A stretch of DNA of 64,000 bases from a virus. A model generated the notes under the pieces. The model saw only the letters and a program-made list of their open reading frames with translations, was not told where the DNA came from and did not search any database. Position numbers and translations under genes: made by a program. How positions within the stretch are numbered: position 1 is the first letter of the stretch; each line of letters starts with the position of its first letter. Location: positions 8,742 to 72,741 of IMG/VR virus record IMGVR_UViG_3300033429_000001; one strand, written 5' to 3'. Shown in pieces: positions 12,889 to 18,362 of this stretch.

Positions 12889-12972
12889 ATTATAACATAC
12901 TTATGCCGTAAACACAAGTGGAAGTTTCGCTGAATGAAACAAAAACAAACAAAATTTGATAATTTTAAGGTT
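12889..12972 (-). promoter_or_regulatory. Leftward promoter module, copy B
   Basis: Minus strand TTGTGT-17-TATAAT; near-identical to 14080-14162. Confidence 0.75.
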
Positions 12973-13846
12973 AAACGATGTAGGCAAGAGCAGACTTGAG
13001 GGCCAGGGCTGCGGCGGTACACTGGTCGCGCTTGAAGTTCTTTCCCAGTGCATTCCAGGCTTCGGCGGCCTGTTGCCAAAAATTGATTTGATTATTAAGT
13101 ACTTCGTGAGGCTTATTACCGCTTGTTGGCGGGATAGTTGTTGATGGTAGAGGCGGGTCTGCTGGAACTTCTGTTGGTTGGTCGTTGACGCTAATTTGAC
13201 CGCCAAACAACGGGGCGTCAAACAAGGTGGCCTGGGCCTGCTGCTGGAACAATTCGCCGCAGACTCTACGGAACCATGCCGGGGTAGGGCTGGTGTTGTC
13301 TCGAAGCTTGCGGATGGCTAACATTTGGAAGTTGGAGTCAAGGTCGGCTTGGGAAATGATTTGAGCGTAGCCTAGACCAATGTCGCCGGTTCTAACTAAG
13401 TCTTGAAGGTCATCACGAAGCTTCAGAAGCTTGAGACGAAATTCAACTCTTACGGAACTGACACCGGCTTGCTTGGAACACTTTTTAGCGTCCCACCCGT
13501 AAAGGCTAATCCGGCTGGCGTAAGCGTTGGCCTCGTCGATGGGGTCGAGGTCGTCGCGGCTGACATTTTCGGTGAGCATAACGGCGCTGGCTTCTTCATC
13601 GTTGAGGCTAACGACGATACACGGAACCTCTGACCAGTTCAGGAGTTCAATGGCTCGTGTACGACGCTCGCCGGCAACTATCTGGTACATTTCCGTGCTG
13701 TCTATATGGCGCACGGTAATCGGCTGAATTAGGCCATTCTCGCTGATACTGTTAGCCAGTTCTTGCAGGGCCTTTGGGTCAAAGCGAGTGCGGTCATTGT
13801 TGCCGGGTACTATGAGGGTTGTGTCAATCATTTTGATGTTGGACAT
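12971..13846 (-). CDS. parB: ParB/Spo0J family protein
   Basis: LQELANSISENGLIQPITVR, YQIVAGERRTRA, ENVSRDDLDPIDEA, HTH. Confidence 0.92.
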   Translation of the reverse strand: MSNIKMIDTTLIVPGNNDRTRFDPKALQELANSISENGLIQPITVRHIDSTEMYQIVAGERRTRAIELLNWSEVPCIVVSLNDEEASAVMLTENVSRDDLDPIDEANAYASRISLYGWDAKKCSKQAGVSSVRVEFRLKLLKLRDDLQDLVRTGDIGLGYAQIISQADLDSNFQMLAIRKLRDNTSPTPAWFRRVCGELFQQQAQATLFDAPLFGGQISVNDQPTEVPADPPLPSTTIPPTSGNKPHEVLNNQINFWQQAAEAWNALGKNFKRDQCTAAALALKSALAYIV

Positions 13847-14187: not shown

Positions 14188-14697
14188 ATGGCCAGTAAAG
14201 AGGCTCTAATGGAACTGAGGCGGTCTCTGATCGCTGCCCTTCTATCTGCTGACCCGAGAATTACGCAACGGCAGATATTGACCGCATTGGAGAGAAAGGG
14301 ACTATTTAACCCAGATTCGGGGAATCCCTATTCTGTGGGCACCATCAACACGGACATCAAGGTCATAAAAGTGCAATGGCGCGAGCGGGCAGGGATAGAT
14401 GCAGAGGGCTGGTTGAGCGAGGTTTTGGCCAAACTTGACGAATTGGAAAAAAAGGGCTGGACTACGGGAAAGCCTGATTTGGTACTGAAGTGTATTCAGG
14501 AGCGCAATAAATTACTGGGATTGTACTCCCCCTCCAGGCAAGAAATCACCGGTGCCGGTGGCGGCCCGATAAAGACAGAGGATGCAACCCTTACCGACGA
14601 AGAGCGAATTAATAGAATTGCAGCCATATTTGACCGGGCAAGAGCTAAACGAGACAGGCAAGCTGACACACAACAAGAAAAGTTGCCAGGCGAATAA
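14188..14697 (+). CDS. terS: Terminase small subunit (putative)
   Basis: N-terminal HTH, ERNKLLGL, and C-terminal EITGAGGGPI motif typical of TerS; lies upstream of TerL. Confidence 0.75.
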   Translation: MASKEALMELRRSLIAALLSADPRITQRQILTALERKGLFNPDSGNPYSVGTINTDIKVIKVQWRERAGIDAEGWLSEVLAKLDELEKKGWTTGKPDLVLKCIQERNKLLGLYSPSRQEITGAGGGPIKTEDATLTDEERINRIAAIFDRARAKRDRQADTQQEKLPGE

Positions 14698-14711
14698 TTG
14701 CATGGTATACT
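14683..14711 (+). promoter_or_regulatory. Promoter of the TIGR-like cassette
   Basis: TTGCCA (14683-14688), 17 nt, extended -10 TGgTATACT (14703-14711). Confidence 0.7.
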
Positions 14712-14716
14712 CTCAA

Positions 14717-14797
14717 TGTTCGTGAGTGGTATCAAAATTGTAAAAAACCGTTTTGGGGAGTGCAGGCCACTCGCGAACACCCAAGGCGGTTTTTTTT
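14717..14797 (+). promoter_or_regulatory. Attenuator-like leader (A-B-A'-B'-polyT)
   Basis: TGTTCGTGAGTGG/CCACTCGCGAACA interleaved with AAAAAACCGTTTTGGG/CCCAAGGCGGTTTTTT. Confidence 0.7.
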
Positions 14798-14826
14798 ATT
14801 GCGTTGTAGGCGAGGCAGGCGAAGAT

Positions 14827-15450
14827 ATGGAAACAAAAGAAGATATGGCAAAGCAGAGCAAAATGACGAAGGGAAAAATTACCATTGACGTGCGTGACTG
14901 GCAAAAAGAATTTGCCGAGATAGAGCCGGATTTAACCGGCGATGACCCGATAATTGACCTTGCCCTGACAGGATTAAAACCACAGCAAGCGGGCAGGATG
15001 ATAACCATCGCCGGAGAGCGTGGTGATTTAAAAGACTTTCCGGGTTCAAAGCTTTTGCTGATGGTCGGGGGAGCTAATTTCTTTAGTAGTCACGTGGCGC
15101 GGGCCAAGCGAGAAATTACGCTGAAGAACGGCAAGACCTTTAGCGGTCGGGCCTACATCGCCCCGGCTCGTGAGGTGGCGGGAGAGGATGAGGAGGATCA
15201 GTCTGATAATGATACCCATCTACAACATGCTGCCTCATCCCTTCCTGCCTCAAATTGGCTTGATGAGAAAGTAGTCAGCACAATCGACCCGGCTACTTTT
15301 GACCGGGCCGTCAGGTATCTTTTCAACCAAGTGACGGGTAATATCTGGAAGCGTTTTTTACACATTGCCGAACACAAGCCGGGTGAAGTGGAACGGATAG
15401 CCGGCGAGTTGAAAGATAGGATAGATGAGATGGTAGAGCGGTTGAGTTAG
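14827..15450 (+). CDS. Hypothetical protein co-transcribed with the TIGR-like array; contains one guide unit in its acidic linker
   Basis: 207-aa ORF between the leader and the array; no family recognised. Confidence 0.7.
   Translation: METKEDMAKQSKMTKGKITIDVRDWQKEFAEIEPDLTGDDPIIDLALTGLKPQQAGRMITIAGERGDLKDFPGSKLLLMVGGANFFSSHVARAKREITLKNGKTFSGRAYIAPAREVAGEDEEDQSDNDTHLQHAASSLPASNWLDEKVVSTIDPATFDRAVRYLFNQVTGNIWKRFLHIAEHKPGEVERIAGELKDRIDEMVERLS
15186..15240 (+). ncRNA. Orphan tigRNA-like unit inside the upstream ORF
   Basis: Stem GGATGAGG/CCTCATCC enclosing TCA-gtctgataa-TGATACCCA-tctacaaca-TG. Confidence 0.75.
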
Positions 15451-15960
15451 CCAGCCGGCGCGTAATACCCAAGCATCTTGTGCTACCAATCGCAACCGGT
15501 GGGGCGGCCACATGCCGCGTGATACCCAAACTTCATGTGCCGCCCCACCTTAAAAGCTTACTGAGGGCCAAATCCTAAGTGATGCCCAGTCCAACGGTGC
15601 CCTTGACAAAATCCGAGGTTGAGCCAGGTTGAACGTGATACCCACGATAATTGTGTTCAACCCCGGCTTTTGGAGAGAAGCCAGTAGCATAGTGATACCC
15701 ATGAAACGTGTGCTTCTCTCCCAAATCAAGGCAATTGGTCTTGACCAGATTAGCGGTGATACCCACCTAGACAGTGAAAGGACAAAAATAATGAACCAAA
15801 GTGAATGTGATACCCAGAATCAATGTGTTCAAATTGAAGGCAACAACGGAGAGGGCCAGGAATCCTGTGATACCCAGTTAATGGACGTCCCCTCCGACGA
15901 TAACGGGACGGGCGTCCATAAAAGTCATGATACCCACTCCCCATGTGACACCCGTCCCGA
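15440..15960 (+). ncRNA. Stem-loop TIGR-like array, nine tandem dual-spacer guide units
   Basis: CCA-N9-TGATACCCA-N9-TG with CCA at 15451, 15508, 15568, 15624, 15681, 15745, 15796, 15856 and 15916; each unit is flanked by a unit-specific inverted repeat. Confidence 0.88.
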
Positions 15961-16720
15961 CCCAAAGCCCCGCAAGCATCCCCACCTATGGCAAGCCTAT
16001 CTATGGTGGTACGAGTTGATGGAAATGCGCAAGCGTCACAACTCGCGTATTTCCTCAATCGAAAATGGCAAGAGCAATCTTGACGCGGGATTTGAACGGG
16101 AAATGATAGCGATGCTTCAGCTTGACATCCTGGTTGACCCGAAGAATAAGACCCAGCGAGCTATGTCTGCCAAGCAGATAATGGTGAATTATGGCGAGGC
16201 TGTTGGGCCAATATGGGACTGGTGTTTGGCCCATAAGGGAATGGGGGAAAGCCTGACTGCCCAACTATTGGCCCAGATAGACGACATCAACAATTCCCCA
16301 TCGGTGTCCAGTCTGTGGAGGTTTGCCGGGTTCAGTATTGACGGGGGGAAGGCAGAGAAAAATCATAAAGGGGTCAAGTCGCCCTTTAACCACAAACTCA
16401 AGGGTATCTGTTTCAATATTGCCGATCAATTCATCCGGCAGCAAACGCCGTACTATGTCGATATTTATTATGCCGAGAAACAACGCCAGCGAGAATTATA
16501 TCCCGAACCAGTTTGTCGGGGCTGTGGAGAGTTGGCAGTACAGAAACGGAAAAAGGTTAGAGGCAAAATGGTGATGACCTGGGGCTGTCCCGAGAATGGC
16601 AAGCACGTTGTAAATTATACCGATGCCCACCTGCATATTAGAGGGTGGCGTAAGATGATAAAGGAATTTCTTAAGGACTTGTGGGTAGCGTGGCGCAGGA
16701 TTGAGGGTCAGATAGAATGA
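15791..16720 (+). CDS. tasA: Nop-domain (IS110 C-terminal-like) RNA-binding protein without nuclease domain, TasA-like
   Basis: GAAAGGA RBS before ATG 15791; coiled coil, then KGMGESLTAQLLAQIDDI...SSLWRFAGF, FNHKLK...IADQFIR, YYAEK, HLHIRGWRKMIKEFLKDLWVAW. No DEDD RuvC and no IS110 catalytic SG loop. Confidence 0.8.
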   Translation: MNQSECDTQNQCVQIEGNNGEGQESCDTQLMDVPSDDNGTGVHKSHDTHSPCDTRPDPKPRKHPHLWQAYLWWYELMEMRKRHNSRISSIENGKSNLDAGFEREMIAMLQLDILVDPKNKTQRAMSAKQIMVNYGEAVGPIWDWCLAHKGMGESLTAQLLAQIDDINNSPSVSSLWRFAGFSIDGGKAEKNHKGVKSPFNHKLKGICFNIADQFIRQQTPYYVDIYYAEKQRQRELYPEPVCRGCGELAVQKRKKVRGKMVMTWGCPENGKHVVNYTDAHLHIRGWRKMIKEFLKDLWVAWRRIEGQIE

Positions 16721-16744
16721 GATAAACACAGCAACGCAAACCCA

Positions 16745-16778
16745 AGAGGGCCAGAGTTATCTGACCCTCTTTTATTTT
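16745..16778 (+). terminator. Terminator closing the TIGR-like cassette
   Basis: AGAGGGCCAGA/TCTGACCCTCT hairpin followed by TTTATTTT. Confidence 0.65.
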
Positions 16779-16805
16779 GACGCCAGCCAATCAATATGAT
16801 AAAGT
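16777..16805 (+). promoter_or_regulatory. Putative promoter for terL
   Basis: TTGACG-17-TAAAGT with TGn extension, just before ATG 16815. Confidence 0.5.
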
Positions 16806-16814
16806 ATCATTAGC

Positions 16815-18362
16815 ATGCAAATACCGACGAAGAGCGAATTGATAGAGTTGCAGCCGTATCTGACGAAATCGCAACTGGAAGAAATAGACAAACTGGCGAA
16901 TGAGATCGAGATACCGCTTTGGTATCCCAATCCTGACCACGAAGACGGCTCCCCGAATCCTCAGCGATTGGCCTATGAGAGCGAGGCTGACATCTTGGGG
17001 TATGGCGGTTCGGCGGGATCGGGCAAAACGGACCTACTCCTCGGCGTCGCTGCCACCCAGCAAACCAACTCCGTAATCTTCCGCCGCGTCTTTCCCAATC
17101 ATCGAGGAAACATTGAGCGCAGCCGAGAGATATTTAACCCCACCGGTGTCCCTCATGGCAAAAACAGCTTCAATGAACAGTTTCACCGTTGGAAATTAGC
17201 AAGCGGTAAACAAGTAGAATTCGAAGCCTGCCAACACGAAAAGGACAAAAACAACCAACGCGGACGCCCCCGAGATTTCTATGGCTTTGATGAGGCCACC
17301 GAATTCACCCGCTCTCAATTTGATTTTATCATCGGCTGGAATCGCTCGACAGACCCCAACCAACGATGTCGAATCATTCTTACTTTTAATCCCCCCACCG
17401 ACGAGGTCGGCTCCTGGGTGGTGGATTTCTTTTTACCCTGGATTTCCTACCTTTTCCCCAAAGACTTTGAGCATCCCCGCCCGGCCAGGCCGGGGGAGTT
17501 GCGATGGTATGCCACCGTCGAGGGACAAGAGACCGAATGCACAGACGGAACCCCATTTGAGCGTGATGGGCTTCTCGTCAAGCCCCTTAGCCGGACTTTC
17601 ATCCCAGGCAAACTCAAAGACAATCCACATTTGATAAATACCAATTATGAGGCTATCCTTCAGTCACTGCCCGAGCCGCTACGTAGCCAGGTGCTACACG
17701 GCGATTTTGCGGCAGCCAAAGAGCGCGACCCCTGGCAGGTGATTCCCGTCGAATGGGTCAAGCTGGCTCAAAAGCGGTGGCTGGAAATGGAGAGGCCGGC
17801 GGTGCCTATTTCCGGTACGGGGGTTGATGTGGCCCGAGGAGGCCAGGACAAGACAACAAAATGCGATAGGTACGACAATTATTTTGATGAGGTCAAGGTA
17901 TGGCCTGGGGTGGCCACCCCAGACGGTCCGACGGTGGCCGCGTTGGTCGAGGGCGAATTGGAGGGCGAACCTGCCTACATCAACATTGATGTAATCGGCG
18001 TTGGGTCGTCTGCCTATGACAGCTTGAAGCCAATGTATAAGCGGGTCAACCCGATCAATGCCGGGGAGAGGTCAGACTACCGGGACCGCTCTGGCAAATA
18101 CAAAATGAGGAATGTTCGGGCGGAATATTACTGGCGGATGCGGGAGGCGTTGGACCCGGATCACGGGGAAGACCCGGCGCTGCCACCGGGTAACGAGGTG
18201 GTAGCAGATTTGTGTTCGGCTCGGTATAAGGTGACGACAGCGGGGATACAGATTGAGAGCAAGGAGGAGATTAAGGAGCGGATAGGCCGGAGTCCTGATG
18301 TTGGGGAGGCTATTTTGCTGGCGAATTATCCGGGGGAGCCGCAGGGGATATTCTTTGGATAA
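16815..18362 (+). CDS. terL: Terminase large subunit
   Basis: YGGSAGSGKT Walker A, FDEATEF Walker B, TFNPP, GVDVARGGQD nuclease motif, IGRSPDVGEA. Confidence 0.95.
   Translation: MQIPTKSELIELQPYLTKSQLEEIDKLANEIEIPLWYPNPDHEDGSPNPQRLAYESEADILGYGGSAGSGKTDLLLGVAATQQTNSVIFRRVFPNHRGNIERSREIFNPTGVPHGKNSFNEQFHRWKLASGKQVEFEACQHEKDKNNQRGRPRDFYGFDEATEFTRSQFDFIIGWNRSTDPNQRCRIILTFNPPTDEVGSWVVDFFLPWISYLFPKDFEHPRPARPGELRWYATVEGQETECTDGTPFERDGLLVKPLSRTFIPGKLKDNPHLINTNYEAILQSLPEPLRSQVLHGDFAAAKERDPWQVIPVEWVKLAQKRWLEMERPAVPISGTGVDVARGGQDKTTKCDRYDNYFDEVKVWPGVATPDGPTVAALVEGELEGEPAYINIDVIGVGSSAYDSLKPMYKRVNPINAGERSDYRDRSGKYKMRNVRAEYYWRMREALDPDHGEDPALPPGNEVVADLCSARYKVTTAGIQIESKEEIKERIGRSPDVGEAILLANYPGEPQGIFFG

What the first reader, a model, noticed from the sequence alone, without database searches (positions are those of the whole stretch)
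15791..15960. Last three guide units double as the N-terminal coding sequence of the Tas-like protein
Seen: the best RBS (GAAAGGA) and ATG 15791 lie inside the array, and units 7-9 are read in frame without stops, giving CDTQ/CDTQ/HDTH repeats because TGATACCCA is read as D-T-Q/H. Inference: these are dual-use mRNA/guide sequences. Processing of these guides would cut the Tas mRNA, giving a built-in negative feedback loop, and spacer change would be constrained by the reading frame.
Basis: partly seen in the sequence, partly recalled or inferred. Interest (0 to 1): 0.75.

Follow-up and report, generated by a model that had tools for sequence, protein, structure and literature searches.

The report
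Guide-RNA units inside the tasA gene

Summary
The window carries a stem-loop TIGR array of 10 units, each reading stem, CCA, 9 nt, UG, AUAC, CCA, 9 nt, UG, stem (10 matches against 0.03 expected). It is followed by a nuclease-less TasA; the best structural matches are TasR 9mty and TasH.

The tas start is most likely ATG 15791:
- It is the only ATG with a Shine-Dalgarno site.
- Nine of the 120 aligned homologs, as their sources called them, begin with a similar M-[NS]-x4-D-[TA]-[QH].
- No ATG, GTG or TTG lies in frame between 15881 and 15953, so unit 9 is coding under any start.

Units 7-9 encode residues 1-55, which AlphaFold2 predicts to be disordered. The stem of unit 9 co-varies with synonymous Arg codons across loci.

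About a third of the 120 close homologs carry such tails. Xu et al. (bioRxiv 2026.09.09.750476) already report stem-loop tigRNAs inside tas coding sequences.

The proposed feedback through Tas-made cuts is unsupported, because this Tas lacks the C-terminal Tyr/His processing loop. Verdict: a new member of a known kind, of modest interest.

The parts
14592..14634 (+). Left copy of a 43-nt direct repeat, in the 3' end of the putative small-terminase gene
   Evidence: family D3: 91% identical to 16822-16864. Alignment.
14683..14711 (+). Sigma-70-like promoter match ahead of the cassette
   Evidence: 10 of 12 hexamer positions, with TG before the -10. Consensus match only; 5 sites found against 2.6 expected in the region.
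14827..15450 (+). ORF250-family gene (207 aa counted from the ATG at 14827), a conserved partner gene just upstream of array and tasA
   Evidence: tblastn found it upstream of tas in 21 fetched locus records, some of them duplicate records of one contig. Alignment A3. No Pfam, PHROG or PDB match.
15180..15245 (+). Unit 0: an isolated tigRNA-like stem-loop unit (core 15198-15229), in frame within the disordered linker of ORF250
   Evidence: -24.8 kcal/mol, z -2.0; linker residues 116-145 have pLDDT below 50. Units at the same position in L001 and L016.
15451..15776 (+). Intergenic part of the array: unit cores 1-6 at 15451-15482, 15508-15539, 15568-15599, 15624-15655, 15681-15712 and 15745-15776, with flanking stems
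   Evidence: Fold z-scores: unit 2 -5.7, unit 4 -3.9, unit 5 -5.25; units 1, 3 and 6 about 0.
15776..15782 (+). Shine-Dalgarno site of tas, in the place where the 3' stem of unit 6 would lie
   Evidence: -5.3 kcal/mol against the anti-SD, 8 nt before the ATG. The same layout is seen in L001, L010, L011 and L014.
15791..16720 (+). tasA coding sequence (309 aa): disordered tail at residues 1-55, then coiled coil and Nop-like domain
15791..15832 (+). Unit 7 (core 15796-15827). The start codon lies in its weak 5' stem, 2 nt before box C
   Evidence: Fold -7.0 kcal/mol, z -0.39. 78% identical to unit 4 over 41 nt.
15847..15896 (+). Unit 8 (core 15856-15887). Its second box D reads CG instead of UG; the in-frame ATG 15881 lies in its spacer B
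   Evidence: Fold -18.3 kcal/mol, z -1.34. ATG 15881 has no SD (+0.6).
15904..15959 (+). Unit 9 (core 15916-15947). A 12-bp stem whose 3' arm encodes the D-T-R-P start of the conserved Tas core
   Evidence: Fold -25.2 kcal/mol, z -4.67. Orthologous last units and a compensatory base pair in L001 and L010-L016.
16744..16778 (+). Terminator-like hairpin followed by a T-run, after the tas stop
   Evidence: Read directly. The scan did not flag it; its loop is longer than that scan allows.
16822..16864 (+). Right copy of the direct repeat, in the 5' end of the large-terminase gene (16815-18362)
   Evidence: terminase large subunit, E 1.2e-42.

Best explanation
The locus is a self-contained phage cassette inserted between the small- and large-terminase genes. 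It runs: promoter-like site, ORF250-family gene, array, tasA, terminator-like hairpin.

The array is a stem-loop TIGR array of the intermediate kind. The 9-nt loop (UG-AUAC-CCA) is conserved, as in dual-repeat arrays, but variable palindromic stems take the place of edge repeats. Each unit carries two 9-nt spacers, each between a box C (CCA) and a box D (UG). The protein is a TasA: a Nop-domain, nuclease-less, RNA-guided DNA binder.

tasA translation starts at ATG 15791, which lies 2 nt before box C of unit 7. Its Shine-Dalgarno site replaces the 3' stem of unit 6. Units 7, 8 and 9 are therefore translated as a disordered 55-residue N-terminal tail. The 3' stem of unit 9 doubles as the first codons of the conserved core.

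Shown here: the unit grammar, the protein family, the position of the start relative to the conserved core, the disorder prediction, the RNA stems, and the recurrence of this layout in relatives.

Inferred: ORF250, array and tasA are made as one transcript. An RNase other than Tas trims out the units. A transcript molecule therefore yields either Tas protein or the guides of units 7-9. Guide output and Tas output are coupled, but no Tas-catalysed feedback is required.
For: Grammar:
- 10 matches against 0.03 expected.
- The same CCA-N9-UG-N4-CCA-N9-UG units occur in related loci.
- It matches box C = CCA, box D = UG and 9-nt spacers (Faure 2025, passages seen).

Protein:
- phmmer against PDB: 9mty E 1.9e-23, TasH E 1e-4.
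- AF2 mean pLDDT 85.5, pTM 0.76.
- Foldseek top ten are all TasR or TasH chains, E 4e-10 to 3e-6, followed by IS110-family recombinases.
- No nuclease family in Pfam.

Start codon:
- The conserved core (R-P-D-P-K-P-R-K ... L-W-Q) begins at residue 55, position 15953. It is present in 118 of 120 aligned homologs.
- No in-frame ATG, GTG or TTG lies between 15881 and 15953.
- SD energy is -5.3 kcal/mol for ATG 15791 and +0.6 for ATG 15881.
- Nine homologs, as called by their sources, start M-[NS]-x4-D-[TA]-[QH] like the window (eight with M-N, one with M-S).

Relatives:
- In 7 of 8 loci with embedded units (window, L001, L010, L011, L014, L015, L016; not L012), the SD-preceded ATG lies 1-2 nt before box C of a unit.
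- 43 of the 120 best homologs have at least 35 residues before L-W-Q, most with periodic loop-derived motifs.

Disorder: residues 1-55 have block pLDDT of 38-55 and no secondary structure.

RNA selection on unit 9: the central stem pair is G-C in L001, L010, L011, L014 and L016, C-G in L012, and A-U in the window. The 5'-arm codon GCG, CCG or ACG is matched by the synonymous Arg codon CGC, CGG or CGT.

Literature: Xu et al. report stem-loop arrays inside tas at the 5' end, 3' end or internally, without breaking the frame and mostly in disordered regions, with small-RNA-seq for BlTasA (sections read).
Against:
- The tas frame is open back to 15620, and the source's gene caller started the protein at GTG 15635 (361 aa). 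A longer form that also covers units 4-6 is not excluded.
- My SD script scored TTG 15629 and GTG 15635 slightly better (-6.6 and -6.3) than ATG 15791, but through a GAGG about 18 nt away.
- Open frames through units occur without any start codon in L040 and L090, for 55 and 68 codons beyond the SD-ATG. Openness is therefore weak evidence.
- In the relatives with V-L-P motifs, an in-frame GTG lies 15 codons before L-W-Q. It is the box D of the last unit, and two homologs were called from there. In those loci the tail may not be translated.
- Unit 7 has only a 4-5 bp stem (z -0.39), and the second box D of unit 8 is CG. These two may be decaying units rather than working guides.
- All conserved residues of the tail are explained by conserved RNA positions. 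There is no sign of selection on the tail as protein beyond keeping the frame open.
Confidence: 0.78

Rival explanations
1. Relic reading. Units 7-9 are array units that the tas reading frame absorbed when its start codon moved upstream. They are translated but no longer yield guides. The stem of unit 9 persists as an mRNA structural or stability element.
For: - Unit 7 has a weak stem (z -0.39) and is a 78%-identical copy of unit 4.
- Unit 8 has CG in place of the second box D.
- In L001, L011, L012 and L014 the orthologous last unit has degenerate boxes, AG and CCT.
- None of units 7-9 has a CUU next to its 3' stem, whereas units 0, 2, 3 and 4 do (read). Xu et al. place processing at a CUU at the stem base.
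Against: - Units 7 and 9 meet the complete box grammar, and unit 8 misses it only at its second box D; all three have 9-nt spacers.
- The stem of unit 9 is as strong as the best intergenic units and co-varies.
- BlTasA intragenic units do give small RNAs (Xu et al.).
- A CUU count over ten units is far too small to carry weight.
Confidence: 0.3
2. Operator reading. Tas dimers bind the box C/D elements of units 6-9 on the tas mRNA itself. Because the SD and the ATG lie in the flanks of units 6 and 7, this binding blocks initiation. That is translational negative feedback without any cleavage. Unit 0 in ORF250 would extend the same control to the partner gene.
For: - The SD lies where the 3' stem of unit 6 would be, and the ATG lies 2 nt from box C of unit 7. 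The same geometry recurs in 7 of 8 loci with embedded units.
- A conserved unit lies in the ORF250 linker in the window, L001 and L016.
- Nop-family proteins bind box C/D elements (Faure 2025, passages seen).
- Autoregulation of L7Ae through a K-turn in its own mRNA is a precedent that I recall, not one I looked up.
Against: No binding or expression data exist. The geometry could equally result from how start codons arise: the 5' edge of units in relatives reads GTGAC-CA, one change from ATGAC-CA.
Confidence: 0.2
3. Tas itself processes the array, so more Tas means more cutting of its own mRNA within units 7-9, giving a built-in negative feedback loop.
For: - SpTasH processes its own pre-tigRNA (NAR paper PMC13421893, passages seen).
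- The units lie inside the mRNA (this report).
Against: - The catalytic Tyr289 and His296 of SpTasH lie in a C-terminal loop beyond the last helix. The window's Tas ends 5 residues after that helix.
- Within this family, 13 of 14 loci with dual-repeat arrays and a readable C-terminal tail carry the P-Y-x6-G-H tail. The 14th, L005, has F in place of Y.
- Ten of 11 loci with arrays that are not 18-spaced lack that tail, the window among them.
- Among the 120 homologs, long N-terminal tails and the Tyr/His tail almost never coincide (41 against 1).
- Xu et al. state the same rule and leave the nuclease open.
Confidence: 0.1
4. Different start. Translation begins at ATG 15881, so only unit 9 and the tail of unit 8 are coding; or it begins upstream at 15629-15701, so units 4-9 are coding.
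For: - ATG 15881 is the in-frame start nearest the core.
- The frame is open from 15623, and the source's gene caller chose GTG 15635.
Against: - ATG 15881 has no SD (+0.6). ATG 15701 scores -0.2.
- The GTG codons at 15635 and 15692 are the loop repeats themselves.
- Homologs start at the equivalent of 15791.
Confidence: 0.15

Closest known systems
Intragenic stem-loop tigRNAs in tas genes (Xu et al., bioRxiv 10.64898/2026.09.09.750476; Bifidobacterium longum TasA as the tested case)
   Same: Stem-loop units lie inside the tas coding sequence without breaking the frame, in disordered protein segments, and the effector is a nuclease-less TasA. The authors also raise a link between tigRNA maturation and Tas translation (sections 5, 11 and 13, read).
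   Different: The tested BlTasA units map to the internal wedge loop; here the units form the N-terminal tail and span the start codon. The figures, the supplementary table and the TIGRSafari catalogue could not be seen, so I cannot tell whether this locus or its subfamily is listed there. Three details found here appear in none of the sections I read: the start codon 1-2 nt before box C, the SD in place of a 3' stem, and stem covariation through synonymous Arg codons.
Stem-loop TIGR array of Peromyscus leucopus gut TasA (Faure et al. 2025, PMC12045711; structures in bioRxiv 10.64898/2026.08.11.744272)
   Same: Nuclease-less TasA; tandem hairpin units with two spacers between box C and box D; sub-arrays separated by other sequence (section 9, read).
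   Different: The window's loop is a conserved 9-nt repeat, as in dual-repeat arrays. Faure et al. call such arrays a possible intermediate stage. No sequence comparison with PlTasA was made here.
Dual-repeat TasA loci of the same protein subfamily (for example L004, L019, L024; 50-53% identical)
   Same: The same conserved core from R-P-D-P-K-P-R-K onward, the same ORF250-family gene upstream, and the same box C / box D / 9-nt spacer grammar.
   Different: These loci have 18-nt alternating repeats. The start ATG lies 15-20 codons before L-W-Q, right after the array, with no embedded units. They carry the C-terminal P-Y-x6-G-H tail that the window lacks.
tasParB-tasA operons (Faure et al. 2025, methods section 44)
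   Same: A conserved gene directly upstream of tasA with the array between the two genes, and a long C-terminal helical hairpin.
   Different: ParB likeness could not be shown for ORF250. There was no Pfam, PHROG or PDB sequence match, the best Foldseek E was 0.76, and hhalign against the window's own ParB-like protein gave probability 0.15%. A separate true ParB-like gene lies at 12971-13846 on the other strand.

Membership tests
TIGR-Tas system (Tas protein) | Nop / IS110-RNA-binding-domain fold with a coiled-coil dimerisation helix | tested here: met
   phmmer against PDB: 9mty E 1.9e-23, TasH E 1e-4. Foldseek top hits are TasR and TasH, E 4e-10 to 3e-6, TM 0.49-0.56. The model has a long helix at 64-91.
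TasA subclass | No HNH or RuvC nuclease domain N-terminal to the Nop domain | tested here: met
   Residues 1-55 are predicted disordered and the fold starts at about 56. Pfam gives only a weak IS110-family match. Total length is 309 aa.
TIGR array | Units with two short spacers (8-12 nt), each between box C (CCA) and box D (UG), separated by a loop of about 9 nt | tested here: met
   Ten units fit CCA-N9-UG-AUAC-CCA-N9-UG; box C is UCA in unit 0, and the second box D is CG in unit 8. Definitions come from Faure 2025.
Stem-loop type array | Variable palindromic flanks forming a closing stem instead of a conserved edge repeat | tested here: met
   Closing stems have z of -2 or lower in units 0, 2, 4, 5 and 9. 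A stem is present but not significant in units 7 and 8, and weak in units 1, 3 and 6. The flanks differ between units.
Stem-loop type Tas | Absence of the C-terminal Tyr/His processing loop | tested here: met
   The protein ends 5 residues after the last helix. Dual-repeat relatives carry P-Y-x6-G-H. The rule is stated by Xu et al..
Stem-loop type array | CUU motif at the stem base marking processing sites | tested here: inconclusive
   A CUU lies at or next to the 3' stem base in units 0, 2, 3 and 4 but not in units 7-9 (read). A 3-mer over ten units has no statistical weight.
Intragenic tigRNA (Xu et al.) | Units inside the tas coding sequence, frame preserved, in a disordered protein segment | tested here: met
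Intragenic tigRNA (Xu et al.) | The embedded units are expressed and recovered as Tas-bound small RNAs | not testable with these tools
No RNA data were available.
Dual-repeat TIGR array | Two alternating conserved repeats (edge and loop) with an 18-nt period | tested here: not met
   Only the loop repeat is conserved and the unit spacing is 51-64 nt. Compare L004 and L019.
tasParB | ParB-like N-terminal domain in the gene upstream of tasA | tested here: inconclusive
   No significant match by Pfam, PHROGs, PDB profile search, Foldseek or hhalign. The only trace is an 8-residue I-[VT]-I-A-G-E-R stretch aligned to the ParB G-E-R-R region at probability 0.15%. HHpred, which the authors used, is not available here.

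The most novel reading that the evidence does not exclude
The embedded units would form a conserved RNA operator system rather than a by-product. Tas would bind the box C/D units that bracket its own Shine-Dalgarno site and start codon, and also the single conserved unit inside the disordered linker of the upstream ORF250-family gene. Guide loading would then set the translation of both cassette proteins. A unit in a gene other than tas, kept at the same linker position in loci whose proteins are only about 35% identical, is described in none of the TIGR paper sections I read.
Probability: 0.15. Interest if true: 0.6.

Novelty: new member of a known kind. Interest (0 to 1): 0.33.

Why it matters
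It shows how compactly a phage packs an RNA-guided system: the same 170 bases encode three guide-like hairpins and the dispensable-looking head of the effector. This subfamily holds dual-repeat loci (start codon after the array, Tyr/His processing tail present) beside stem-loop loci (start codon inside the array, tail lost). That makes it a natural series for studying how the two array types convert and how guide maturation is tied to effector synthesis. For annotation, it warns that Tas N-termini with periodic D-T-Q or V-L-P motifs are array units read in frame. The general phenomenon is already in print, so the gain is detail and a well-resolved example, not a new principle.

Tried and rejected
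- Downstream start (ATG 16019 or 16025): rejected. The conserved core starts 22 codons earlier.
- Open-frame statistics as proof of translation: dropped. Twelve of 30 unit-frames are stop-free, and L040 and L090 have 55-68 open codons through units with no start codon.
- Spacer targets: I scanned the whole 72,741-nt contig for spacer A joined to the reverse complement of spacer B, in both orders, allowing up to 4 mismatches. It gave 15 hits, against about 11 expected by my arithmetic. No hit other than two self-sites had fewer than 3 mismatches. The self-sites are unit 4 against its own DNA (1 mismatch) and unit 7 against its own DNA (4 mismatches). No self-target of the phage was found; host targets were not searched.
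- Rfam: no family matched in 14500-17000 at E up to 1.
- ParB identity of ORF250: not shown.
- fold_alignment of the last units: MAFFT placed the window's 5' arm about 5 columns out of register. Its A-U count for the window row is therefore an artefact. The C-G change in L012 is valid there. The window's A-U pair is read from the per-sequence folds.
- Cultured relatives: tblastn of the Tas against 50,697 phage records gave only distant hits of 34% identity or less, mostly mycobacteriophages.
- Genome contigs gave a single locus, a Nitrospirales MAG. No host could be assigned.
- Not used: complex prediction, the search of protein representatives, the protein-atlas search, read laying, the listing of cluster members.
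- DNA of the closest D-T-Q-type homologs (P0002, P0003, P0024 and others) could not be fetched, because the look-up of encoding contigs is described as closed and was not called. Their start codons rest on their sources' gene calls.
- Supplements and figures of the papers were not seen.
Full report
OBSERVATION. GAAAGGA lies at 15776-15782 and the ATG at 15791. The frame is open to the stop at 16718-16720. Three loop repeats start at 15807, 15867 and 15927, exactly 60 nt apart. They are translated as C-D-T-Q, C-D-T-Q and H-D-T-H.

WHAT THE UNITS ARE. Each unit reads: variable 5' stem, CCA, 9 nt, UG, AUAC, CCA, 9 nt, UG, variable 3' stem. This is the published tigRNA grammar. Box C is CCA, box D is UG, spacers are 9 nt, and the loop is about 9 nt (Faure et al. 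2025, PMC12045711, sections 4 and 9 read, passages of section 8 seen). Only the loop is a conserved repeat; palindromic flanks replace the edge repeat.
- The pattern matches 10 times in the 64-kb window, all on the + strand between 15198 and 15947. The shuffle mean was 0.03.
- Nine units form the array at 15451-15947. A tenth, unit 0, lies 250 nt upstream.
- Closing stems are strong in unit 2 (z -5.7), unit 4 (-3.9), unit 5 (-5.25) and unit 9 (-4.67). They are moderate in unit 0 (-2.0) and unit 8 (-1.3). They are weak in units 7, 1, 3 and 6.
- Rfam has nothing for this region.

THE PROTEIN.
- The 309-aa product matches the solved TasR 9mty (E 1.9e-23) and TasH (E 1e-4) by sequence.
- The AlphaFold2 model has mean pLDDT 85.5 and pTM 0.76.
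- Its ten best Foldseek matches in the PDB are all TasR or TasH chains, followed by IS110-family recombinases.
- There is no nuclease domain, so it is a TasA.
- PHROGs files the family as 'transposase', which is a mis-annotation trap.

WHERE TRANSLATION STARTS. 320 homologs were found and the best 120 were aligned.
- Conservation begins at R-P-D-P-K-P-R-K-x-P-x-L-W-Q, which is residues 55-68, from position 15953. The long coiled-coil helix starts at residue 64.
- This lies upstream of ATG 16019. Only 2 of the 120 lack it: P0079, from a 948-nt contig, starts at the equivalent of that later Met, and P0066 has 8 residues before L-W-Q.
- Between 15881 and 15953 there is no in-frame ATG, GTG or TTG, and by my reading no CTG, ATT, ATC or ATA. 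Unit 9 is therefore coding under any start.
- Against the anti-SD, ATG 15791 scores -5.3 kcal/mol at 8-nt spacing. ATG 15881 scores +0.6 and ATG 15701 scores -0.2.
- Nine homologs, as called by their sources, begin M-[NS]-x4-D-[TA]-[QH] like the window (eight with M-N, one with M-S).
- Against this: the frame is open back to the TGA at 15620. The source's gene caller chose GTG 15635 (361 aa). My script scored TTG 15629 and GTG 15635 at -6.6 and -6.3, through a GAGG about 18 nt upstream. I put about 0.8 on 15791.

RELATIVES. 89 locus records were fetched (L001 duplicates L002). 44 non-redundant loci, the window included, contain the core start.
- In nearly all of them, one ATG carries a strong SD.
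- Loci with 18-nt alternating repeats (dual-repeat arrays such as L004 and L019) start 15-20 codons before L-W-Q, right after the array, and have no embedded unit.
- Eight loci have units inside the coding sequence from the SD-ATG: the window, L001, L010, L011, L012, L014 and L015 by script, and L016 by eye.
- In 7 of these 8 the ATG lies 1-2 nt before box C of a unit. In the window, L001, L010, L011 and L014 the SD follows directly on box D of the preceding unit, where its 3' stem would be.
- In the V-L-P-type loci an in-frame GTG lies 15 codons before L-W-Q. It is the box D of the last unit and has a weak SD in 4 of 6 loci. There the short form cannot be excluded.
- Among the 120 homologs as called, 43 have at least 35 residues before L-W-Q. 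Of the 104 I could parse, long tails and a Tyr/His C-terminal tail almost never coincide: 41 without against 1 with. Among short N-termini, 25 have the tail and 37 do not.

RNA SELECTION INSIDE THE CODING SEQUENCE. The last unit is orthologous across these loci. Its 5' arm encodes N-G-x-G and its 3' arm encodes D-x-R-P of the conserved core. The central pair is G-C in five loci, C-G in L012 and A-U in the window. The changes lie in the codons GCG, CCG and ACG on one arm and the synonymous Arg codons CGC, CGG and CGT on the other. This is one pair with three types in seven sequences. It is real but thin. The automatic alignment mis-registers the window row.

THE TAIL AS PROTEIN. Residues 1-55 have block pLDDT of 38-55 and no secondary structure. 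Every conserved tail residue in alignment A1 corresponds to a conserved RNA position. I see selection to keep the frame open, but none for a folded function.

HOW IT LIKELY WORKS.
- A promoter-like site at 14683-14711 and a hairpin with a T-run at 16744-16778 bracket ORF250, the array and tasA. No promoter-like site lies within the array. Co-transcription is therefore my inference.
- The window's Tas ends 5 residues after its last helix. The Tyr289/His296 loop that processes pre-tigRNA in SpTasH lies beyond that helix (PMC13421893, passages seen; alignment).
- In this family, 13 of 14 dual-repeat loci with a readable C-terminal tail carry P-Y-x6-G-H. The 14th, L005, has F for Y.
- Ten of 11 loci with arrays that are not 18-spaced lack that tail.
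- This agrees with Xu et al., who say that stem-loop clades lack the loop and that the nuclease is unknown.
- Hence cutting within units 7-9 would destroy the mRNA, but it would not depend on Tas.
- A cleavage-free feedback, in which Tas binds the units around its own SD and ATG, fits the geometry but is untested.

WHAT IS KNOWN. Xu et al. (bioRxiv 10.64898/2026.09.09.750476, dated 2026-09-11; sections 5, 7, 10, 11, 13 and the extended-data legends were read) state the following. [quoted passage not shown] They usually lie in disordered regions. [quoted passage not shown] Small-RNA-seq evidence is given for BlTasA. A search for 'tigRNA' together with 'intragenic' found only that paper. The finding is thus a further, well-resolved example of a described arrangement. 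I could not see their figures, their supplementary table or TIGRSafari.

SIDE OBSERVATIONS.
- ORF250 (14827-15450) is a conserved gene upstream of the array in 21 fetched locus records, some of them duplicate records of one contig. It has no detectable family.
- Unit 0 lies in frame in its disordered linker.
- L001 and L016 carry a unit at the same place, with 16-17-bp stems (z -5.8 and -6.1). Their stem sequences differ, and the loop is of the window's type rather than their own array's type.
- A 43-nt direct repeat, 91% identical, flanks the cassette at the terS/terL junction. In the Bordetella BPP-1 records hit by TerL, both terminase subunit features lie under the TerL match, which suggests they are adjacent there. 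This fits an insertion at that junction.

LIMITS. There are no expression data. The start codons of the closest homologs rest on their sources' gene calls. The covariation is thin.

Noticed in passing
window 15180-15245 (core 15198-15229); L001:3418-3495; L016:103-180: A single tigRNA-like unit lies in frame inside the disordered linker of the ORF250-family gene upstream of the array. It is kept at the same position in the window, L001 and L016, with different stem sequences (z -2.0, -5.8, -6.1). L014 is cut by its contig end but shows the 3' arm. The strict pattern found such a unit in 2 of the 14 family genes scanned; L016 was found with a relaxed pattern. The TIGR paper sections I read mention units inside tas only.
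   Followed up: partly
window 14827-15450: The ORF250 family is a conserved gene directly upstream of array and tasA in 21 fetched locus records, some of them duplicates of one contig, of both dual-repeat and stem-loop type. It has no Pfam, PHROG, PDB or Foldseek match. It may be the tasParB of Faure et al., but ParB likeness was not shown here.
   Followed up: partly
window 14592-14634 and 16822-16864: A 43-nt direct repeat (91% identical) joins the 3' end of the putative small-terminase gene to the 5' end of the large-terminase gene. It flanks the 2.2-kb ORF250-array-tasA cassette, which has its own promoter-like site and terminator-like hairpin. It looks like an insertion that duplicated the overlapping terS/terL junction.
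   Followed up: partly
window 15624-15662: Spacer A of unit 4 is complementary (8 of 9) to the box D and 3' stem of its own unit. The unit can therefore fold in two registers, and its own DNA forms a 17-of-18 match to the two-spacer target rule. Unit 7 is a decayed copy of unit 4 (78% over 41 nt).
   Followed up: partly
window 16704-16778: The last codons of tas (E-G-Q-I-E-stop) are complementary to the 3' arm of the downstream terminator-like hairpin, which gives two alternative hairpins. Dual-repeat relatives continue at this point with the E-G-L-P-V...P-Y-x6-G-H processing tail. The window's gene looks truncated exactly there.
   Followed up: no
proteins P0002, P0024, P0028 (C-termini): Some homologs end with D-T-Q or V-T-H motifs after the last helix. 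This suggests units read in frame at the 3' end of tas as well.
   Followed up: no
window 12971-13846 (- strand): A true ParB-like gene (PHROG E 2e-35) lies 1 kb upstream on the opposite strand. It is not in an operon with tasA.
   Followed up: no
loci L040 and L090: The arrays upstream of tas stay open in the tas frame for 55 and 68 codons without any ATG, GTG or TTG. Unit sequences can therefore be stop-free by composition alone.
   Followed up: no
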